NCBI GenBank assembly: GCA_052168235.1
Contig: JBQLZK010000104.1
Location: 1 to 16,207 of the forward strand
DNA length: 16,207 bases
Origin: Thainema sp.
GTDB lineage: Bacteria > Cyanobacteriota > Cyanobacteriia > Phormidesmidales > Phormidesmidaceae
Direction of reading: 5' to 3'
The translations under genes and the position numbers were made by a program. The notes under the pieces are model-generated. The model ran no database searches, was not told where the DNA came from, and saw only the letters and a list, made by a program, of their open reading frames with translations. Below, piece after piece: positions 1 to 16,175 of the stretch. How positions within the stretch are numbered: the first letter of the stretch is position 1; each line of letters opens with the position of its first letter.

Positions 1-20
1 CCTGAACAACCAGCTCAGCC

Positions 21-404
21 TTAATTCTCTCGCCAGCGGATGACGTGCTCCCGTTCTTCCTTTGCATTAAGCCAGCAAACACCACCAGAGTAAGTTTCAG
101 TAAAAGCCACCGCATACTGAATCGCTAACTCGGTTTTACCTACACCCCCCATTCCGGCAATGGCTGAAATCACAACCCGATCCTGCTGTTGCAAAGCCTG
201 ATGCAGAGTATTGATTTCTTCACCACGACCGACAAATTTAGTCGCACCCCGAAACGGAATATTCTGCGGAATGTCCGTTAGCGTTTCCGTATCCGACAAC
301 TGCCGAGACTGCGATCCAACATTGACGTTTTGGATCGAAATTGGACTGTTAAAACCAGCAATACCGATTTTCTCAAAATTGCCAAACTCTTCAGGCATCG
401 ACAC
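21..404 (-). CDS. N-terminal part of an NB-ARC/STAND (NLR-like) NTPase with an N-terminal amyloid-like motif; apparently truncated or frameshifted
   Basis: PQNIP..FVGR motif, Walker A GMGGVGKT (aa 84-91, nt 132-155) and YSGGVCWL, the usual opening of cyanobacterial NB-ARC-TPR proteins. The frame stops at aa 127, before any Walker B. The start may be the ATG at 398 rather than the GTG at 404. Confidence 0.85.
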   Translation of the reverse strand: MSMPEEFGNFEKIGIAGFNSPISIQNVNVGSQSRQLSDTETLTDIPQNIPFRGATKFVGRGEEINTLHQALQQQDRVVISAIAGMGGVGKTELAIQYAVAFTETYSGGVCWLNAKEEREHVIRWREN

Positions 405-409
405 TCACA

Positions 410-853
410 CTAATCCATATGAAAGTTCTGGATTGAAACAGGGCTGTTGATCGTCACCATTCCGACTTTTTGAATGGTGTCGGCTAGCTTGGCAATTTTT
501 TGCTCTGGTGTTTCTTGTGGATCAATATTCTGCGAAACTTCTTTAACTAACGCATCAAGTTCAGGATTTTGCTCAGCGGCAGCAGCAGCAGCTAGCTCTT
601 TGATCGTGGATTGAAGTTCGGCATCTGTTCGGGATAACACCTCAACATCAATCACGGCTTTGCCATAGTCCAACGGCTGTTGCGGTGCTTGCTCAATGGC
701 AGTCACCGTCTCTGGCGATTTTTTCTTGAGAGATTTCAAAAACTTGTCACTGGCAGAGAACAGCTTTTCGCTGAGTTGCTCACCAGTCTTCTCCCAGAAC
801 TTAGTCATAATTGTGGCTGCGATCGCAGTTGCCGCAAGTGTTAATGGCTCCAT
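410..853 (-). CDS. Small helical protein, Bell/HeLo-like putative effector with a C-terminal amyloid-like motif
   Basis: Hydrophobic N-terminal helix MEPLTLAATAIAATIM, amphipathic helices, and a C-terminal KVGMVTINSPVSIQNFHMD matching the N-terminus of the NB-ARC ORF 5 nt downstream. ATG at 853 preferred over GTG at 859. The ORF is solid; the function is inferred. Confidence 0.7.
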   Translation of the reverse strand: MEPLTLAATAIAATIMTKFWEKTGEQLSEKLFSASDKFLKSLKKKSPETVTAIEQAPQQPLDYGKAVIDVEVLSRTDAELQSTIKELAAAAAAEQNPELDALVKEVSQNIDPQETPEQKIAKLADTIQKVGMVTINSPVSIQNFHMD

Positions 854-7669: not shown

Positions 7670-8446
7670 CTAAAACAGGTTCATCTGCTCATCATTCTTA
7701 TCTTTATCATTCTTATCTTTATCTTTTCCGTTCGCTGGTGACGAGGATAATGGATTAGTTGCTGACGGTGCCTTTTTCTTCATGCCACGCTGCGAGGCTA
7801 ACTTATCTGCCTGTCGCGTGGTTTCCGGTAGACGGTACTTGGGCGTGCAGGCCATGACATAATCCAGCGCTGTCGGTAAACTGATGCGATGACCAACCGA
7901 AATATAGAGCGGCTTGGTATTTGTGCGCGATCGCAACACCGCTCCAATCGTTTCTTCCTTATCTTTAAGCGGCACCCAATTGCCTTTTTCCAGTGGCACG
8001 TCTGGATGACGACCAATCAGCCTCGATTTTGCCACCCCAATCGTCGGTACATCCACTAATAACCCCAAATGGCTAGCAATCCCCAAGCGACGCGGATGGG
8101 CTATACCCTGACCATCGCACAAAATTAAATCTGGTTCTGTCTTTAACTGCGCCAGTGCCGCTACCACTGCTGGAACTTCTCGAAACGAAAGAAAGCCTGG
8201 AATGTAGGGAAACGTTGTCGGCACATGTGCGATCGCATGTTCAACCAGCTCTAAATCCGGATAGCTCAGTACGACGACTGCGGCACGGGTAATAGTCCCG
8301 TTCTCTTCAAATCCCGCGTCTACTCCCGCCACGTACTGTACAGAACCAAGCTGGTCGGTTGTGATCACCTGCGATCGCAAATCCTGCTGAATCTTGACGG
8401 CAACTTCAGCGGTTTCAGGCCAGTCTGTCAGTGCCGGAATTTTCAT
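7670..8446 (-). CDS. nfi: Endonuclease V (deoxyinosine 3' endonuclease) with a C-terminal low-complexity tail
   Basis: VAGVD, FPYIPGFLSFRE, LILCDGQGIAHPRRLGIASHLG, PTIGVAKS, KPLYISVGH and YRLPETTR.AD. Confidence 0.96.
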   Translation of the reverse strand: MKIPALTDWPETAEVAVKIQQDLRSQVITTDQLGSVQYVAGVDAGFEENGTITRAAVVVLSYPDLELVEHAIAHVPTTFPYIPGFLSFREVPAVVAALAQLKTEPDLILCDGQGIAHPRRLGIASHLGLLVDVPTIGVAKSRLIGRHPDVPLEKGNWVPLKDKEETIGAVLRSRTNTKPLYISVGHRISLPTALDYVMACTPKYRLPETTRQADKLASQRGMKKKAPSATNPLSSSPANGKDKDKNDKDKNDEQMNLF

Positions 8447-8535: not shown

Positions 8536-9597
8536 TCACTTATGCTCTGGATGAGTCGTTTCGGGGCGAGAGTCACTAAACCGATTGAGTCCCATAATGA
8601 ACTGATGCAGGCGGCCATAGTCGCGCTGATTAAAGTACATCACCAAGCGCGGCATCTCTTCCGTTTCGTCGCCGACTTCCTGAGGAAGGGCTTTACTCTT
8701 TTCGATTTTGCCTTTGACCAAAATGTCGCTGTACTCTTCATTTAGCTGATGAATGGCCTCATCCGATAGCTCGCAGTTGAGCCGCATCACAAACCGCTCG
8801 CCCACATAGCGACTAGAGTGATAGACCCGATAAAAATCTGCGATCGCTTGGCAGGCTTCATCTAGCGAGTCGGTAATCACGTACAGGCTCGGATCATCAA
8901 CGCTGATTAATCCTTTGTCGAGTAGATGCTGTCGAATGTAAACATCCCAGCTCTTCCAGTAGTCTCCCCCCGGTTGATCAACCATCACTAGCGGCACGAG
9001 CCCCGATTTGCCTGTTTGAATCAGAGTTAGGCACTCGAATGCTTCGTCTTGTGTGCCAAAACCGCCGGGGAACAGAGCCAGCGCATCACTTTCTCGCAGG
9101 AAGAACAGCTTGCGCGTGAAAAAGTACTTGAAGAACAGCAGCTTTTGGTCGCCGTGGATAAACGGGTTGGCTCCCTGCTCAAACGGTAATTGAATATTGA
9201 GGCCAAAGGAATTGCCCGCACCTGCGCCCATGTTACCCGCCTGCATGATGCCGCCGCCCGCGCCCGTCATCACCATGAAGCCCTGCTTCGTCACCTGGCG
9301 GGCAAACTCCAGCGCCATCTGATATTCAGGATGATCTGCTGGAGTACGGGCTGAGCCAAAAATGGTAATCTTACGCACATGACGATAGGGATAGAACATC
9401 TCAAACGCCTGCGCCATGTCTTGTAGCGAGTAATTTAAGATTTTCCAATCCAGGCGATCCGCTTCACTCTCTGCCAGCCGAACTAAAGTGAGGAGTGCCT
9501 GCTGAATGAACTCTCGGTGTTTCATCGTCGGCAGGTCTCGTATCAGTTGACTGACTTCTGCCTCAAGTGCTGTGAGTGAATTGGGAGACGAAACCAT
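8536..9597 (-). CDS. LOG-family (nucleotide 5'-monophosphate phosphoribohydrolase-like) protein with N- and C-terminal extensions
   Basis: ITIFGSART, MTGAGGGIMQAGN, GLNIQLPFEQ..N, FKYFFTRK and the signature PGGFGTQDE. Confidence 0.92.
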   Translation of the reverse strand: MVSSPNSLTALEAEVSQLIRDLPTMKHREFIQQALLTLVRLAESEADRLDWKILNYSLQDMAQAFEMFYPYRHVRKITIFGSARTPADHPEYQMALEFARQVTKQGFMVMTGAGGGIMQAGNMGAGAGNSFGLNIQLPFEQGANPFIHGDQKLLFFKYFFTRKLFFLRESDALALFPGGFGTQDEAFECLTLIQTGKSGLVPLVMVDQPGGDYWKSWDVYIRQHLLDKGLISVDDPSLYVITDSLDEACQAIADFYRVYHSSRYVGERFVMRLNCELSDEAIHQLNEEYSDILVKGKIEKSKALPQEVGDETEEMPRLVMYFNQRDYGRLHQFIMGLNRFSDSRPETTHPEHK

Positions 9598-11845: not shown

Positions 11846-12427
11846 TCAGCGTGACATCACAACCTGCTTCAGCCGCTCTGGATTCGTTTCGAGATAACCG
11901 ATAGCAACCTTTGGATCTCTCCATCCCATGACCTTCATTAACTCCTGCAGCGACGCGCCATTGTTGGCGATCGCATTGGCAAACGAGCGCCGGAATGAGT
12001 GGGTAGAGATGCCCACATGATTTAACCGAGCTTTATCGACGGCGCGGCGGAGGGCATCATCGGCAGCATCAAAACTTAGGTGTGAGCCATCTTCTAGACC
12101 TGGGAACAGATACCCGTAGAACGGCTGCTGATATTCACAGAGCAGAGAGCGCAAATTCGAATGGACGTAGACTTCTCGTGTCTCTCGCTCTCCATTGGGC
12201 CGTGCTTTACGGGTTGATGCCGGAAACGTGATGGACTCGCGTGGCCATTTATCCAGTGTGTAAACATGCTCGACTCGCAGCTGAACGATAGCCCCCAATC
12301 TCTCACCCGTCCAATAAGCGATATCGAAAATCATGCGGTGCGACGGTGATCGGAATGAGCGCCGTAAATGTTGCCACTGCCGATCGCTCAAAATTGCAGC
12401 TTTCCCCGACCGATTATTTTTTGCCAA
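11846..12427 (-). CDS. Tyrosine recombinase/integrase (catalytic domain only)
   Basis: Complete catalytic set: R43 (TGER), K74, H143-x-x-R146 (THSFRR), W169 (MGW) and Y178, plus YLFPG. At 193 aa it lacks N-terminal core- and arm-binding domains. TTG start. Confidence 0.93.
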   Translation of the reverse strand: MAKNNRSGKAAILSDRQWQHLRRSFRSPSHRMIFDIAYWTGERLGAIVQLRVEHVYTLDKWPRESITFPASTRKARPNGERETREVYVHSNLRSLLCEYQQPFYGYLFPGLEDGSHLSFDAADDALRRAVDKARLNHVGISTHSFRRSFANAIANNGASLQELMKVMGWRDPKVAIGYLETNPERLKQVVMSR

Positions 12428-12646: not shown

Positions 12647-12964
12647 ATGCCACTATCAATTACTCAACGGTTCGGAGCAAGCGCCACATTAACTGCCGGG
12701 GTTTTGAGCGTCACTATCACCGAGCTGGCAAATCTCGATGACCCCCAAGCATCAGCCGATCAAATTCTGGCGGCCATGATTCTGCATAGCAAAGCTGTTC
12801 AGCCCACAAATGCTCTTGACGATGCAACAGTTGGCGTTACCATCGACGATCCATTCAAGAGTTTTGCTCGCACCGATACCCAAATTCAGCATAGCTACAG
12901 CGTCAATTTGTATGAAGTAGCCAGTGGAGCTGGAGCCCTTGACCCGGATGACGTGGTGAGCTAA
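12647..12964 (+). CDS. Hypothetical protein (105 aa), first gene of the element operon; candidate structural protein
   Basis: GAGG RBS at 12634-12637. Its stop overlaps the next start (TAATG). Ala/Thr/Asp/Ser-rich with a beta-helix-beta pattern; no family recognised. Confidence 0.8.
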   Translation: MPLSITQRFGASATLTAGVLSVTITELANLDDPQASADQILAAMILHSKAVQPTNALDDATVGVTIDDPFKSFARTDTQIQHSYSVNLYEVASGAGALDPDDVVS

Positions 12965-13596
12965 TGGCTGAGCAAGAGACGATCGTCTATTTTCGCTACC
13001 CAGGCGATACCACCTGGCAACAGGTCAAGGTGGCTGGTTCATCAGCCACCGCTGAAACCGAATCCGTCAGCATTCCCGCTCCATGTGCTCAGAGCTATGA
13101 ACTGACGTATGTGGTGAACTGGCGCAACATTGTCGGCGCTGGTTGCCTCAATCGACCGCGCGAATACAAAGTAACCAGGACTGGCCCCTTCATTGCACCG
13201 ATTGATCGCTTCGTTGGGAACCAGTGGCTCGTCCAGCTTGACCGCTATGACACAGAGGGGAATTTCATTCAGTCTGACACCCTAAACGGCGCGTGCTTCG
13301 GTGCATCCAGTCACGCGCCCGATAGCGAGCTAATTTCCTGCATTCCCCTCGGCACACCGTCAAACGACTGCGGCCCTACCGAGTGCAAATTCATCGTCCG
13401 GAATGCCGAGGGTGCGATCGTCTACTCAGAGCAAAACGAAGTTTGTCCTGAGTGGAAAATCTCGTCCGGCTGCCCCCCAGACACGATCGAGTGTGGCGAT
13501 TGCTGTCTGGACTGTGGCGATTATCTCGGTGATGTGCGATCGCTCATTTCTCAGGTTAAACAGCTCACAGGTTCACCCGTTGCTTATCAGGGTTAA
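12964..13596 (+). CDS. Cysteine-rich hypothetical protein (210 aa)
   Basis: 12 Cys, including a C-x8-C-x6-C-x2-CC-x2-C cluster (aa 161-184) followed by a heptad helix. Translationally coupled to the upstream ORF. Confidence 0.82.
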   Translation: MAEQETIVYFRYPGDTTWQQVKVAGSSATAETESVSIPAPCAQSYELTYVVNWRNIVGAGCLNRPREYKVTRTGPFIAPIDRFVGNQWLVQLDRYDTEGNFIQSDTLNGACFGASSHAPDSELISCIPLGTPSNDCGPTECKFIVRNAEGAIVYSEQNEVCPEWKISSGCPPDTIECGDCCLDCGDYLGDVRSLISQVKQLTGSPVAYQG

Positions 13597-13599
13597 ATC

Positions 13600-15762
13600 A
13601 TGTCGGAATGCGATGAATTGAAGCAAGAAATTGCGGCGCTGAGGGCTGAGATTGCCAAGCTACAACCGTTTACCGAGAACAAGTTTAAGGACTGGCTCGG
13701 TAAATTTGGTCTACCTGTTTTGGGTGGAACTTTTGTCATCAACAACTTCAAAGAGTTGGGAGATGCACAATCAATCTCAACCTATGTAACAACTCGTCAC
13801 CGAGCCGCGATGCAGCGAGCTGAGAAAGCTATTGAGGATGCTTTATCTGCGTCGAATAAGGCCAGCGCTGCCCAAAGTTTAGCCAATACAGCTAAAAGCA
13901 AAGCTGAAGATGTAGCAGAAGGTTTAACAAGGCTGGAGGGTTTTGTTAATAGGGTTATAGGAGAGATTAGAGGGCTGATTGATGATGCTGTAGAGAAAGC
14001 GGGTAAAGCCCTCTCGGAGGCATTAGGCGCGACTAAATTAGGTCGTCAGGCTTTGAATCTTGCTGAAGAAATCGCACCTATTGCTAAACGAGCGCTCAAT
14101 GTGACGCTGAAACTATTGGGGCAAATTCTCAACATCTTGGATCTCATTGCTGGGCTCGCAACCTTGGCAGAGGTGCAAGGACTCCGTAAACGGATGAAAG
14201 CTTTAGAGGATGGTCAACGAATCCAAGACCGCGACCTATCCCGCATTCTGAGCATCATCACCTCGATTAAATTCAGGGTTGATGAGCTGGAAGGTGGTTT
14301 GAAATATGCCTACAGACGAATCTCTGAAGCGAATAGGAAAGCGGTTGAGGCGATCAAGGATTCGGCTAGAGCGCTAACGGAGGCAGGACAAGCCTTTTCA
14401 ACCGCTCGCGATGCTCAAAGGGATGCTGAGAGTGCGCAGAATACAGCAACTCGCGCCGCGCGTGATGCTGCTGTGGCTGTGGCAACTGCTAACGCGGCTC
14501 AGGCGGCGATCGGTGCTGTTGCAGGCGTAGCGAATCGAGCATTAGGTCGTGCTGGAACGGCTGAAGGGAAAGCGGATAGAGCATTAAATCTGGCCCGTCG
14601 TGCTGGCAGAGGTGAGAGAGGGCCGCGCGGTCTACCCGGTCGTCCCGGTCGTGATGGGAAAGATGGCGCACCTGGTAGAACTGGCGCACCTGGCAGAACT
14701 GGCGCACCTGGCAGAACTGGCGCACCTGGCAGAGCTGGCGCACCTGGTAGAGCTGGCGCACCTGGCAGAGCTGGCGCAAAAGGTGACCGAGGGCCAGCAG
14801 GCGCACCGGGCAGAGATGGTAGACCTGGACGTGATGGGAAGGATGGAGAAATGGACGCAGCCGACAAAGCTCTACTCAGGAAGATCGATCGCACCACTAC
14901 CGACACCAATCGCCTGAGTAAGGTGATGTCCCCAGTGGTGCTGCTCACTCGCAAGGTGGCAGTCGAGACTCAGAAAAAACTGAACTTGCTCGATACATTT
15001 CTCCGGAAAGCGTGGCAGTTCACACGTATGGATAAAGTAGTGTCAGCCCTAACGCTAGTCGTCACGTTGCATAACGCCTCAATGCTCGCGCGTGACCTGG
15101 GAGAGACATTAGGTGAACTCACCTCTCAAGTTTTGAACGTCATCGGTATCCGTGATGAGAACGGGAACGCCCTCGACGTTAACGGTCTGATCGGCAGCTC
15201 GTTTGAAAACTTACTCATTTCCATCCTGGGTCAGGAAGTCTACAGCGGAGTCCGGCAGAACTGGCTCAAGGCTAATCGAGTGCTGCAAGCTGGCTCGCAG
15301 GTCATCTGGACTGTTCGCAGCATCATGGACAGCACAGCCGAAGTCGAGGAATGGATCGCTGAGAACTTGGGCAAAATCGGCAACGCCCTTAAAAAATACG
15401 GTGTAGTCGGTCGTGCTGCCTATCCCTACATGTCCGAACGGATGAGGGCACAGGAAAGATGGCGCAACAAACTTGGCCGCGTCACGGACGGTCTAGAGTC
15501 GCTGGAGGATACCGCCAGTTCACTCTATGCCGTCACCAGTACAGTTAGGGATGCTCAGGAAGAAATTGGTGAACTTGGCAACAACGCAGGGCAATTCTTG
15601 GGCATGGTCACAGGCGAGATTGATCCGGCCACAGGTCAGCCATACCTCCCACCAGAGCCACAACAACCCGTCGATAATGCTGAAGTCGCTGCCGCCGCTG
15701 CCGCTGCCGCCGCCGCAAGCCAGTCGCCAGAGATCAGCACAGCCGACATGAATCGGGGTTAA
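13600..15762 (+). CDS. Coiled-coil/collagen-like fibre protein (720 aa)
   Basis: Ala-rich coiled-coil tracts, 27 uninterrupted Gly-X-Y triplets (nt 14611-14853), a helical C-terminal domain of about 300 aa and a Pro/Ala-rich tail. It starts 3 nt after the previous stop. Confidence 0.9.
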   Translation: MSECDELKQEIAALRAEIAKLQPFTENKFKDWLGKFGLPVLGGTFVINNFKELGDAQSISTYVTTRHRAAMQRAEKAIEDALSASNKASAAQSLANTAKSKAEDVAEGLTRLEGFVNRVIGEIRGLIDDAVEKAGKALSEALGATKLGRQALNLAEEIAPIAKRALNVTLKLLGQILNILDLIAGLATLAEVQGLRKRMKALEDGQRIQDRDLSRILSIITSIKFRVDELEGGLKYAYRRISEANRKAVEAIKDSARALTEAGQAFSTARDAQRDAESAQNTATRAARDAAVAVATANAAQAAIGAVAGVANRALGRAGTAEGKADRALNLARRAGRGERGPRGLPGRPGRDGKDGAPGRTGAPGRTGAPGRTGAPGRAGAPGRAGAPGRAGAKGDRGPAGAPGRDGRPGRDGKDGEMDAADKALLRKIDRTTTDTNRLSKVMSPVVLLTRKVAVETQKKLNLLDTFLRKAWQFTRMDKVVSALTLVVTLHNASMLARDLGETLGELTSQVLNVIGIRDENGNALDVNGLIGSSFENLLISILGQEVYSGVRQNWLKANRVLQAGSQVIWTVRSIMDSTAEVEEWIAENLGKIGNALKKYGVVGRAAYPYMSERMRAQERWRNKLGRVTDGLESLEDTASSLYAVTSTVRDAQEEIGELGNNAGQFLGMVTGEIDPATGQPYLPPEPQQPVDNAEVAAAAAAAAAASQSPEISTADMNRG
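14665..14772 (+). repeat. Coding tandem repeat, 18 bp x 6 (GAPGRT/GAPGRA)
   Basis: GGCGCACCTGGYAGARCT repeated six times, plus a partial GGCGCA. Confidence 0.95.
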
Positions 15763-15776
15763 GGGAGGAAACGCCA

Positions 15777-16175
15777 GTGCTACCGGATAATTTCAGCCCT
15801 TCTGAACATCTACAGGACACCATCAAAAAGATTTATAACCGTGCTGTCCGTGACTATTTCAAAGATCTGGGTGGTGATGATTGGTCACCCAATATCGACA
15901 CATCACGCGATTCGTTGCGCACAGCGGTGCAGCATTTTGACGGCGATACTTTTTTCATGACCATTGCAAAAATGCTGGCCTTTGACCTTGCTCTTGGTCA
16001 GCGTATGCAGGGTGTACCGGGATTTGAGGAAGGCGGCAAGGGCATCTACCGCAAACAGAAGCCCCAAATCCTGCTCTATTTTCAAGAGGATAACGAGGAC
16101 ATTGAACCGGGATACGCGCCCGTTACAGCCCGAATTTCATTTCGGCTGATGAACTACTGGTTAGTCAAGAATTAA
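15777..16175 (+). pseudogene. Hypothetical protein of the element operon, interrupted by an IS630-family insertion
   Basis: GGGAGG RBS at 15763-15768 and a GTG start. After ...ISFRLMNY the last codons (WLVKN*) are read from the IS end that begins at 16157. Confidence 0.7.

What the first reader, a model, noticed from the sequence alone, without database searches (positions are those of the whole stretch)
318..472. Matched amyloid-like motif shared by an effector C-terminus and the adjacent NLR N-terminus
Seen: the end of ORF 410-853 (KVGMVTINSPVSIQNFHM, nt 416-469) aligns without gaps to aa 12-29 of the next ORF (KIGIAGFNSPISIQNVNV, nt 318-371). Nine of 18 residues are identical and most others are conservative. 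Synonymous codons differ, so the match looks conserved at protein level rather than a fresh DNA duplication. The motif has two hydrophobic beta-prone stretches around an NSP turn and is N/Q/S/G/I/V-rich. Known: fungal NWD2/HET-S and bacterial Bell/BASS systems pair an NLR carrying an N-terminal amyloid motif with an adjacent effector carrying the same motif at its C-terminus. Inference: this is a cyanobacterial prion-like signalling pair, probably for cell death or defence. The K[IV]G[IM]xx[IF]NSP[IV]SIQN motif may be an undescribed family; I cannot tell whether it falls within the published BASS families.
Basis: partly seen in the sequence, partly recalled or inferred. Interest (0 to 1): 0.88.

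Follow-up and report, generated by a model that had tools for sequence, protein, structure and literature searches.

The report
Cyanobacterial cell-death effector and receptor motif pair
A small helical protein and the immune-type receptor gene next to it share a short tail motif, as in known bacterial and fungal amyloid-signalling cell-death pairs; this looks like an ordinary new example, and the receptor gene is cut short at the contig end.

Summary
On the minus strand, the last 18-19 residues of a 147-aa protein (nt 410-853) align without gaps to residues 10-27 of the next gene (ATG at 398). Nine of 18 residues are identical. No shuffle (0 of 20000) and no unrelated neighbouring ORF pair (all other pairs score 30 or less) reaches this score.

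The upstream protein has the published Bell-domain features but matches no Pfam, NCBIfam, PADLOC or PHROGs model. The downstream gene is an NB-ARC receptor. Its closest full-length relatives are NB-ARC/TPR proteins that carry the same N-terminal motif.

In 27 related genome loci, 21 of 24 downstream ORFs scanned are STAND NTPases. The motif class changes together on both sides. So the amyloid-signalling pair reading holds by architecture and comparison. Amyloid formation itself is untested.

Two corrections:
- Only 115 receptor codons are present. The last 53 nt of the contig are unrelated and bring a stop.
- The NSP motif is a local variant of a widespread cyanobacterial motif class, not clearly a new family. 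Assignment to BASS1-10 could not be tested.

By-product: six related loci have no separate receptor start. The effector's UGA is followed in frame by the receptor, which suggests recoding.

The parts
410..853 (-). Effector gene: 147 aa from the ATG at 853, stop TAG at 410-412. It has a Bell-like helical domain and a C-terminal motif.
   Evidence: Identical to P0002. Homologues start MEP/MDP. AF2 with 40-sequence alignment: pLDDT 82.2, seven helices, tail 137-147 below 50.
785..847 (-). N-terminal hydrophobic helix (residues 3-23, PLTLAATAIAATIMTKF...) after M-E. This is the 'MEP' start that is nearly invariant in the family.
   Evidence: Helix 3-23. The highest 17-residue hydropathy of the protein (1.34) is at residues 4-20. 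M1, P3, A7-A10, A12-T14 are nearly invariant.
413..472 (-). Effector-side motif: the last 20 residues, QKVGMVTINSPVSIQNFHMD.
   Evidence: The N/Q/S/G/I/V fraction is 0.60 here against 0.28 in the rest of the protein.
399..409 (-). 11-nt spacer between the effector stop and the receptor ATG. The two genes are co-directional and in different frames.
   Evidence: The same 11-nt gap is seen in L002 and L006.
54..398 (-). 5' part (115 codons) of an NB-ARC receptor gene.
   Evidence: tblastn: 83% identity to residues 1-115 of P0042 (899 aa, NB-ARC+TPR) and 72% to P0043 (Pfam). Weak NB-ARC/AAA_16 hits for the fragment itself.
315..374 (-). Receptor-side motif, EKIGIAGFNSPISIQNVNVG (residues 9-28 from the ATG).
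   Evidence: The same motif is at the N-terminus of P0042 and P0043.
132..155 (-). Walker A loop GMGGVGKT of the NB-ARC domain (residues 82-89).
   Evidence: G82, M83, G84, G85, G87, K88, T89 are invariant in alignment A4.
1..53 (-). Contig-end stretch unrelated to NLR homologues in any frame. An in-frame TAA lies at 21-23.
   Evidence: No repeat of it was found in the window or the loci (blastn-short hits of 13 nt or less at 100% identity, plus one 19-nt hit at 89%). The window is the whole contig (16207 nt).

Best explanation
A two-gene immune or cell-death module of the Bell/BASS-NLR type in a filamentous-type cyanobacterium.

Gene 1 encodes a 147-aa executioner. It has an N-terminal hydrophobic 'MEP' helix packed in a helical bundle, and a roughly 20-residue Q/N/S/G/I/V-rich tail that is unstructured in the monomer model. 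Gene 2 starts 11 nt downstream. It encodes an NB-ARC (by homology NB-ARC/TPR) receptor that begins with a matching copy of that tail.

Proposed mechanism, inferred from HET-S/NWD2 and Bab/Agp and not shown here:
1. Ligand-driven oligomerisation of the receptor brings its N-terminal motifs together.
2. The motifs form a cross-beta nucleus.
3. The nucleus templates the effector tail.
4. The refolded tail releases helix 1 for membrane attack, giving cell death or abortive infection.

Shown here: gene order, motif match, family linkage to STAND genes, and joint switching of motif class. Inferred: amyloid fold, templating, membrane targeting and biological role. In this contig the receptor is present only as its first 115 codons.
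For: Motif match:
- Far above chance (0 of 20000 shuffles; unrelated neighbouring ORF pairs score 30 or less).

Effector family:
- 40 relatives in the word-indexed search.
- 365 representatives at E<=1e-3 in the exhaustive search.
- Almost all are 110-200 aa, start with MEP/MDP, and end in varied Q/N/G-rich tails with a terminal aromatic or aliphatic residue.
- The model is helical with a disordered tail.

Linkage to receptors:
- 21 of 24 downstream ORFs in related loci carry NACHT, NB-ARC or nSTAND1.
- L012 also gives NB-ARC (23.2 bits) when read from just after the stop.

Co-variation over 19 pairs:
- Mean cognate score is 58.05 against 36.9 +/- 3.05 for permuted partners (0 of 20000 permutations reach it).
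- The window's own partner ranks 1 of 19 (55 against a next best of 42).
- At least three motif classes occur (KIGLLVQGGTVNIQN, KIGVVNQGT..NQTN, ENWKGINIKGG), each mirrored in its receptor.

Receptor side:
- The two closest full-length NLRs carry the same NSPISIQ N-terminus.

Published frame:
- Bell domain, adjacency, collinearity and short gaps are described in the Dyrka et al. preprint 10.1101/2020.01.06.895854 (Results parts 1-2 and Discussion part 1 read).
- The 'MEPIS' N-terminal region and an Abi function for a related pair are in Ibarlosa et al. 10.1101/2024.11.07.622273 (sections 4 and 8 read).
Against: - No experiment or structure prediction here shows a cross-beta fold or binding.
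- The effector matches no curated family.
- Its model matches no solved structure (best Foldseek E 0.68; MLKL N-domains only at E 2.2, TM 0.24). The profile search of PDB sequences gave only designed helical repeats. Bell membership therefore rests on listed features, not on a profile.
- Within a motif class the cognate partner is often not the best match: ranks are 8 (L003), 6 (L007), 7 (L014), 6 (L018). L001 (rank 11) and L009 (rank 15, a CHASE2 neighbour) show no convincing match. Specificity is by class, not by locus.
- The receptor ORF in the window stops after 126 aa counted from the ATG at 398, listed as 127 aa from the GTG at 404.
- The motif contains a proline and starts with lysine, residues that the preprint reports as depleted in BASS motifs.
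Confidence: 0.75

Rival explanations
1. Decayed relic. In this genome the receptor was truncated by a rearrangement or insertion after codon 115. The effector would then be an orphan and the module would no longer signal.
For: Homology to P0042 and P0043 ends at nt 54. The remaining 53 nt match no frame of the homologues, and a TAA follows at 21-23. Decay of such loci is seen elsewhere: the L008 receptor is fragmented, the L024 effector has an internal TAA, and L013 and L027 lack a receptor.
Against: The break lies 53 nt from a contig end, where assembly joins and repeat-induced breaks are common. NLR genes with near-identical TPR repeats (P0042) are hard to assemble. The effector and the 115 receptor codons are intact, and the receptor part is 83% identical to a full-length relative.
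Confidence: 0.3
2. The shared tail is a non-amyloid docking tag. It would be a short linear motif that lets effector and receptor bind one to one (for example by beta-strand addition), without prion-like templating.
For: Nothing here tests the fold. AF2 puts the first half of the effector motif (to residue 135) at the end of a helix. The motif holds a proline.
Against: Composition (0.60 N/Q/S/G/I/V), length, position at the two termini and gene layout are those of motifs that formed fibrils and prions when tested (BASS1, BASS3 and BASS11: papers read as stated above). Many unrelated motif classes are used by one effector family. That fits self-templating sequences better than a conserved docking groove.
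Confidence: 0.12
3. Chance similarity or a recent local DNA duplication with no function.
For: The match is short (18 residues).
Against: 0 of 20000 shuffles reach the score. Third codon positions match at only 7 of 18. The same paired arrangement recurs in 17 of the 19 two-gene loci compared, across many cyanobacterial families and one Bacteroidota MAG.
Confidence: 0.01

Closest known systems
Bell-domain effector / NLR pairs with BASS motifs (Dyrka et al., bioRxiv 10.1101/2020.01.06.895854)
   Same: - A short (120-150 aa) helical protein with a hydrophobic N-terminal helix and an acidic residue at position 2.
- A C-terminal motif of about 20 residues repeated at the N-terminus of a co-directional NB-ARC or NACHT gene a few bases downstream.
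- Found in a cyanobacterial host.
   Different: - The motif could not be assigned to BASS1-10. The NSP[VI]SIQN form is seen only in 8 of the 40 closest relatives (P0002-P0009) and in 2 of 120 related NLRs.
- The receptor is incomplete in this contig.
- The effector clade otherwise pairs with NACHT receptors, but here with NB-ARC.
HET-S / NWD2 of Podospora anserina (fungal HRAM amyloid signalling; recalled, and as summarised in the preprint)
   Same: An NLR with an N-terminal motif next to a pore-forming effector that has the same motif at its C-terminus. The proposed templating logic is the same.
   Different: The effector domain is Bell-like, not HeLo, and no sequence or fold match was found. 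There is one motif copy on the effector side, not two pseudo-repeats.
Bab / Agp (BASS11) antiphage system of E. coli (Ibarlosa et al., bioRxiv 10.1101/2024.11.07.622273)
   Same: A small helical effector with a conserved N-terminal 'MEPIS'-type helix and a C-terminal amyloid motif. The neighbouring gene starts with the same motif. Defence by abortive infection was shown there.
   Different: [quoted passage not shown] Babybell is about 80 aa, while this domain is about 125 aa with seven predicted helices. No detectable sequence similarity was tested or found here.
RHIM / PP / BASS3
   Same: A short amyloid signalling motif with a central Q.
   Different: The G-phi-Q-phi-G core given in the preprint's Discussion is absent. 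The window has S-I-Q-N-F (effector) and S-I-Q-N-V (receptor).

Membership tests
Bell-domain effector | An alpha-helical globular domain of about 100 aa in a short (about 120-140 aa) protein | tested here: met
   147 aa. The AF2 model has seven helices over residues 3-135, pLDDT 82.2.
Bell-domain effector | An N-terminal hydrophobic helix with a negative charge at position 2 or 3 (the 'MEPIS'-type region) | tested here: met
   Starts MEPLTLAATAIAATIMTKF. Helix at 3-23. The hydropathy maximum is at residues 4-20. The start is nearly invariant in 40 relatives. Distant relatives start MEPIS/MEPIT/MEPLS.
Bell-domain effector | A match to the authors' Bell HMM or homology to their seed proteins (ONI86675.1, RCJ33357.1 and others) | not testable with these tools
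   No Bell model exists in Pfam, NCBIfam, PADLOC or PHROGs. The seed sequences cannot be fetched by accession, and the supplements are closed.
Bell-domain effector | Fold like the solved Babybell, HeLo or MLKL executioner domains | tested here: inconclusive
   Foldseek against the PDB gave no match at E<=0.001. MLKL N-domains appear only at E 2.2, TM 0.24. The Bab paper itself reports large topological variation among Bell models.
BASS-type amyloid signalling pair | The same motif at the effector C-terminus and at the N-terminus of an adjacent co-directional gene | tested here: met
   9 of 18 residues identical, score 55, 0 of 20000 shuffles. Same strand, 11-nt spacer.
BASS-type amyloid signalling pair | The partner is an NLR: an NB-ARC or NACHT domain plus TPR or WD repeats | tested here: inconclusive
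   The Walker A loop is present, with weak NB-ARC hits for the fragment (19.7 bits, below the cut-off of 23.5). It is 83% identical to the start of an NB-ARC/TPR protein. The repeats and most of the NB-ARC domain are not in the contig.
BASS-type amyloid signalling pair | A motif of about 20-25 aa enriched in Q, N, G, V, I and depleted in K, P, L | tested here: met
   The N/Q/S/G/I/V fraction is 0.60 against 0.28 in the rest of the protein. It does contain one P and one K.
BASS-type amyloid signalling pair | The motif forms amyloid fibrils or prion-like foci, and the receptor side seeds the effector side | not testable with these tools
   This needs peptides or GFP fusions.
BASS1-BASS10 (a specific family) | A match to one of the ten published motif profiles | not testable with these tools
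   The logos are figure images and the profiles are in supplements. The text holds no motif strings (0 hits for KIG and IQN; the single 'NSP' hit is inside a word of the reference list).
BASS3 / RHIM / PP | A central G-phi-Q-phi-G signature | tested here: not met
   The window motifs read V-S-I-Q-N-F and I-S-I-Q-N-V.
HRAM (HET-s type) | Two pseudo-repeats of the motif on the effector side | tested here: not met
   There is a single copy at residues 128-147. No second copy is visible in the sequence or the alignment.

The most novel reading that the evidence does not exclude
This effector family may give its receptor the matching motif in two ways. The window shows the two-gene way.

Six related loci (L010, L011, L012, L019, L020, L024) suggest a second way:
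- The receptor has no motif and no usable start codon of its own.
- It lies in frame behind the effector's UGA.
- The UGA is followed by C in 4 of 6 loci, and 8 nt on by a conserved 5-bp hairpin with compensatory changes.

Effector and receptor would then be the terminated and the read-through (or otherwise recoded) products of one ORF, so both carry an identical motif. That would be programmed UGA recoding inside a bacterial NLR immune module. My two literature searches and a word search of the founding preprint turned up no description of it. The window's pair could be a resolved descendant or parallel form of such a gene.
Probability: 0.4. Interest if true: 0.8.

Novelty: new member of a known kind. 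Interest (0 to 1): 0.38.

Why it matters
On its own, the window adds one more cyanobacterial example to a class defined in silico in 2020, for which function has been shown only in an E. coli relative. Two things make it modestly useful:
- It has a clear, short motif variant (NSP[VI]SIQN) with a matched partner, which suits peptide cross-seeding tests.
- Its effector clade normally pairs with NACHT receptors but is coupled here to an NB-ARC receptor. That is a natural case of partner swapping with motif re-matching.

The comparison set also exposed a possible UGA-recoding form of the same module. If real, it would show how a cell can make a sensor and its executioner from one reading frame with a guaranteed identical templating motif.

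Tried and rejected
Family searches for the effector:
- Pfam, NCBIfam, PADLOC and PHROGs gave no family. The only hit is a sub-threshold EntA_Immun match (18.9 bits against 22.1), which I take as helical noise.
- The PDB profile search gave only designed helical repeats.
- Foldseek against the PDB gave nothing at E<=0.001.
- The ESM Atlas returned unnamed cyanobacterial clusters. One cluster has PF20701 HetE-N on 20% of its members. None of the 40 relatives matched that family in Pfam at E<=1, and my literature search for the name was uninformative.

BASS assignment:
- The preprint text, the PCFG paper, the ASMscan paper and the Prion review hold no motif strings (passages only).

Steps that could not be run:
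There is no result.
- The listing of cluster members, meant to see whether P0003 and P0042 are neighbours, was switched off.

Negative or uninformative scans:
- Promoter scan of nt 1-1100: 0 sites. One terminator-like site lies inside the effector gene, which is no more than in the shuffles.
- The contig-end 53 nt have no informative match in the window or the loci.
- Rfam gave no family in the window or in 6 loci.
- Post-UGA 45-mers fold no better than shuffles (z from -0.84 to +0.29). The hairpin rests on position and compensatory changes only.

Closed collections:
- The metagenome and viral contig collections stayed unchecked.

Full report
**Observation.** Both genes lie on the minus strand.
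- The upstream ORF runs from the ATG at 853 to the TAG at 410-412 and encodes 147 aa. The ORF list extends it to a GTG at 859.
- The downstream ORF is listed as 21-404 from a GTG. Its homologues begin MPE.F, which corresponds to the ATG at 398.
They share 9 of 18 residues without gaps.
- The local BLOSUM62 score is 55. None of 20000 shuffles of the two terminal segments reaches it (maximum 40), and 1 of 5000 whole-protein shuffles does.
- As a control with real genes, I scored all 119 adjacent same-strand ORF pairs (each 100 aa or more) in the window and the 27 related loci. The 12 pairs scoring 40 or more are 11 effector/STAND pairs and one pair of repeat-containing ORFs in L013. All the others score 30 or less.
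- At the DNA level, 34 of 54 bases match, only 7 of 18 third positions match, and 5 of the 9 identical residues use different codons.

**The effector.**
- It matches no curated family in Pfam, NCBIfam, PADLOC or PHROGs.
- The word-indexed search found 40 relatives. A profile of them found 365 cluster representatives at E<=1e-3 and 178 at E<=1e-10 among 1.84 billion proteins.
- I listed 164 relatives of 110-200 aa. Almost all begin MEP, MDP or a near variant, followed by a small-hydrophobic stretch. They end in very different Q/N/G/I/V-rich tails that finish in NF, NI, NL or similar.
- AlphaFold2 with the 40-sequence alignment gives a confident helical model: pLDDT 82.2, pTM 0.77, helices 3-23, 29-45, 47-55, 60-76, 78-93, 97-109 and 116-135. 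The last 11 residues are below pLDDT 50.
- The strongest hydropathy of the protein is at residues 4-20.
- These are the features by which the Bell domain was defined: a helical domain of about 100 aa, an N-terminal hydrophobic helix with an acidic residue at position 2 or 3, and short proteins next to NLR genes (preprint 10.1101/2020.01.06.895854, Results part 1, read). The 'MEPIS' region is described for Bab, Bell, Hell and some antiphage NLRs in 10.1101/2024.11.07.622273 (sections 4 and 8, read).
- I could not run the authors' Bell profile.
- The model has no significant match among solved structures. The best Foldseek E-value is 0.68, and MLKL N-domains appear only at E 2.2 and TM 0.24. The sequence profile against the PDB gave only designed helical repeats.
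- I therefore call the effector Bell-like on features, not on a profile.

**The receptor.**
- The 127-aa ORF holds the motif, a linker with the conserved IPQNIP.RG..KFVGR stretch, and the Walker A loop GMGGVGKT.
- The fragment gives only sub-threshold NB-ARC and AAA_16 hits.
- Its first 115 residues are 83% identical to the start of P0042 (899 aa) and 72% identical to P0043 (645 aa). Both are NB-ARC plus TPR proteins by Pfam.
- Both begin with the same motif...KIGIAGFNSPISIQTVNVG and ...KIGIAASHSPISIQNFNVG.
- Homology stops at window nt 54. The last 53 nt fit the homologues in no frame, and a TAA at 21-23 closes the frame.
- The window is the whole contig. I cannot tell a real truncation from an assembly end, and I give the relic reading 0.3.

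**Host.** The lysyl-tRNA synthetase next door (1057-2622) has only cyanobacterial named relatives among the 120 best hits, at 76-95% identity. They include Trichocoleus, Oculatellaceae, Leptolyngbya and Phormidesmis.

**Comparative test: linkage to STAND genes.**
- A scan of one genome per species found 27 loci encoding relatives of the effector. Twenty-six come from cyanobacteria and one from a Roseivirgaceae (Bacteroidota) MAG.
- Of the 24 downstream ORFs I scanned, 21 carry NACHT, NB-ARC or nSTAND1.
- The three exceptions are L001 (a 146-aa ORF followed by a TPR protein), L009 (CHASE2) and L012.
- L012 does give NB-ARC (23.2 bits, just under the 23.5 cut-off) when read from directly after the effector's stop.
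- L008 has only fragments of a receptor. L013 and L027 have none.

**Comparative test: motif co-variation.** I compared 19 loci with a separate downstream ORF, the window included.
- The mean score between an effector tail and its own partner's N-terminus is 58.05. With permuted partners it is 36.9 +/- 3.05, and 0 of 20000 permutations reach the observed value.
- The window's own partner ranks first of 19 (55 against a next best of 42).
- The co-variation is mainly between classes. KIGLLVQGGTVNIQNF tails pair with KLGVNAPNSQVNIENM starts. KIGVVNQGTIVNQTN pairs with KIGVVNQGTVYNQTN. ENWKGINIKGGN pairs with ENWNGINIKGGN.
- Results against a locus-by-locus code: within a class the cognate is often not the best match (ranks 8, 6, 7 and 6 for L003, L007, L014 and L018). 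L001 (rank 11) and L009 (rank 15) show no convincing pairing.

**A receptor swap.**
- I built a tree of the effector globular parts with the motif removed. It has 26 rows. L024 and L027 were left out because their effectors are broken.
- The window sits, with 98/93 support, in a clade of eight. The six other members with intact partners all pair with NACHT receptors, while the window pairs with an NB-ARC receptor.
- Only 2 of the 120 NB-ARC relatives listed carry the window's motif type.
- The lineage therefore seems to have changed receptor class and re-matched the motif.

**Is the motif a new family?**
- In alignment A1 the window tail (KLADTIQKVGMVTINSPVSIQNFHMD) lines up with the majority tail (KLADKIGLLVQGGTVNIQNFSVD). 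K, G, I-Q-N-F and the final D are shared.
- The NSP form is confined to 8 of the 40 sequences (P0002-P0009).
- P0025 and P0035 (...GGSVSIQTFHMD) are intermediates.
- I read the motif as a local variant of a widespread cyanobacterial class.
- It lacks the G-phi-Q-phi-G core of BASS3/RHIM.
- Whether the class is one of BASS4-10 cannot be decided here. The logos are images, the profiles are in supplements that are closed, and the texts I searched hold no motif strings.
- The preprint itself says that 44 conserved pairs fell outside BASS1-10 and that diversity 'almost certainly' exceeds ten families (Results part 2 and Discussion, read).

**Mechanism.** By analogy with HET-S/NWD2 (as summarised in the preprint) and with Bab/Agp, for which amyloid formation, phage-triggered assembly and abortive infection were shown (abstract and sections 4 and 8 read), I propose four steps:
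1. The receptor oligomerises on a signal.
2. Its clustered N-terminal motifs nucleate a cross-beta structure.
3. That structure templates the effector tail.
4. The refolded tail frees helix 1 for membrane attack.

None of these steps was tested here. The one complex-prediction job was never accepted.

**By-product: a possible UGA-recoding form.** In six related loci (L010, L011, L012, L019, L020, L024) the effector ORF ends in TGA, and the same frame runs on into the receptor.

Evidence for recoding:
- There is no stop in the next 110 codons, and no ATG, GTG or TTG for 25 to 78 codons.
- In L012 the first canonical start lies after the P-loop.
- The stretch without a start encodes the linker and the IPQN...FVGR (or LLTKVK) segment, which is translated in two-gene receptors.
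- These receptors have no motif of their own.
- All 7 loci of this type (L013 included) use TGA. Among the other 19 loci only 2 use TGA (9 TAG, 8 TAA), and the window uses TAG. By my arithmetic the hypergeometric chance is 36/657800, but the loci are related, so this is not a true probability.
- TGA is followed by C in 4 of the 6 loci.
- Eight nucleotides after the TGA lies a 5-bp hairpin. All 30 of 30 cells pair, two pairs show compensatory changes, and 0 of 500 shuffles reach its covariation score. Slid controls pair at 37% or less.
- A covariance model built from the six finds nothing comparable elsewhere in the 256 kb searched. The exceptions are weak hits at the homologous linker of L015 (E 0.007), at L023 nt 203-252, nearly 6 kb upstream of that locus's effector (E 0.05), and at L013 (E 0.22). 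It finds nothing in the window.

Evidence against, or limits:
- Rfam has no match.
- The hairpins are no more stable than shuffled sequence (z from -0.84 to +0.29).
- There are only six sequences.
- The L024 effector carries an internal TAA.
- Selenocysteine insertion or reinitiation at a non-canonical codon are not excluded.

Literature check:
- No listed paper combined 'stop codon readthrough' with amyloid signalling (all ten rows hold no occurrence of that phrase), and none listed treats readthrough in cyanobacterial NLR genes.
- The founding preprint has no occurrence of readthrough, stop codon or frameshift.
- This is a lead in related loci, not a feature of the window.

**Verdict.** The receptor is incomplete in this contig, the motif is a variant rather than a demonstrably new family, and amyloid signalling is inferred. 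I rate it a new member of a known kind, with modest interest. The UGA-linked form in relatives deserves its own follow-up.

Noticed in passing
L010:6391-6440, L011:6400-6449, L012:5137-5186, L019:6391-6440, L020:6424-6470, L024:6433-6482 (also L013:6433-6482): The effector ORF ends in TGA, and the receptor follows in the same frame with no start codon and no motif of its own. In most of these loci the context is TGA-C, followed by a conserved 5-bp hairpin with compensatory changes. This may be programmed UGA read-through or recoding that makes effector and receptor from one ORF.
   Followed up: partly
L008:6433-6850: The receptor's N-terminal motif coding region (KIADKL ... GIHAPESQVNVKNLYVG) is split by roughly 250 nt of unrelated sequence. 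No long receptor ORF follows, so this is a decayed copy of the module.
   Followed up: partly
L003:6459-8912: The motif-bearing NACHT receptor ends in a signal-peptidase (Peptidase_S26) domain (E 2.5e-27). This is an unusual C-terminal module where repeats are expected.
   Followed up: no
L025:1269-3841: An effector/nSTAND1 pair with a well-matched motif (score 71) sits in a Roseivirgaceae (Bacteroidota) MAG, outside the cyanobacteria. The gap between the genes is 377 nt.
   Followed up: no
proteins P0216, P0289, P0300: The Bell-like N-terminal domain also occurs fused to HEAT repeats, to a GUN4 domain and to a dynamin-family GTPase. It therefore behaves as a movable module.
   Followed up: no
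window 11846-12427 (-) and 12647-16175 (+): A 193-aa tyrosine-integrase fragment (PHROG integrase, E 1e-25) lies next to four ORFs. One of them is a 720-aa protein with collagen-like repeats that match phage tail-fibre families, and it contains an 18-nt tandem array at 14664-14778. This may be a prophage or tailocin remnant at the other contig end.
   Followed up: partly
window 8536-9597 (-) and 7670-8446 (-): A LOG/SLOG-type 'lysine decarboxylase-like' protein lies beside endonuclease V. These look like ordinary housekeeping genes, and I saw no link to the pair.
   Followed up: no
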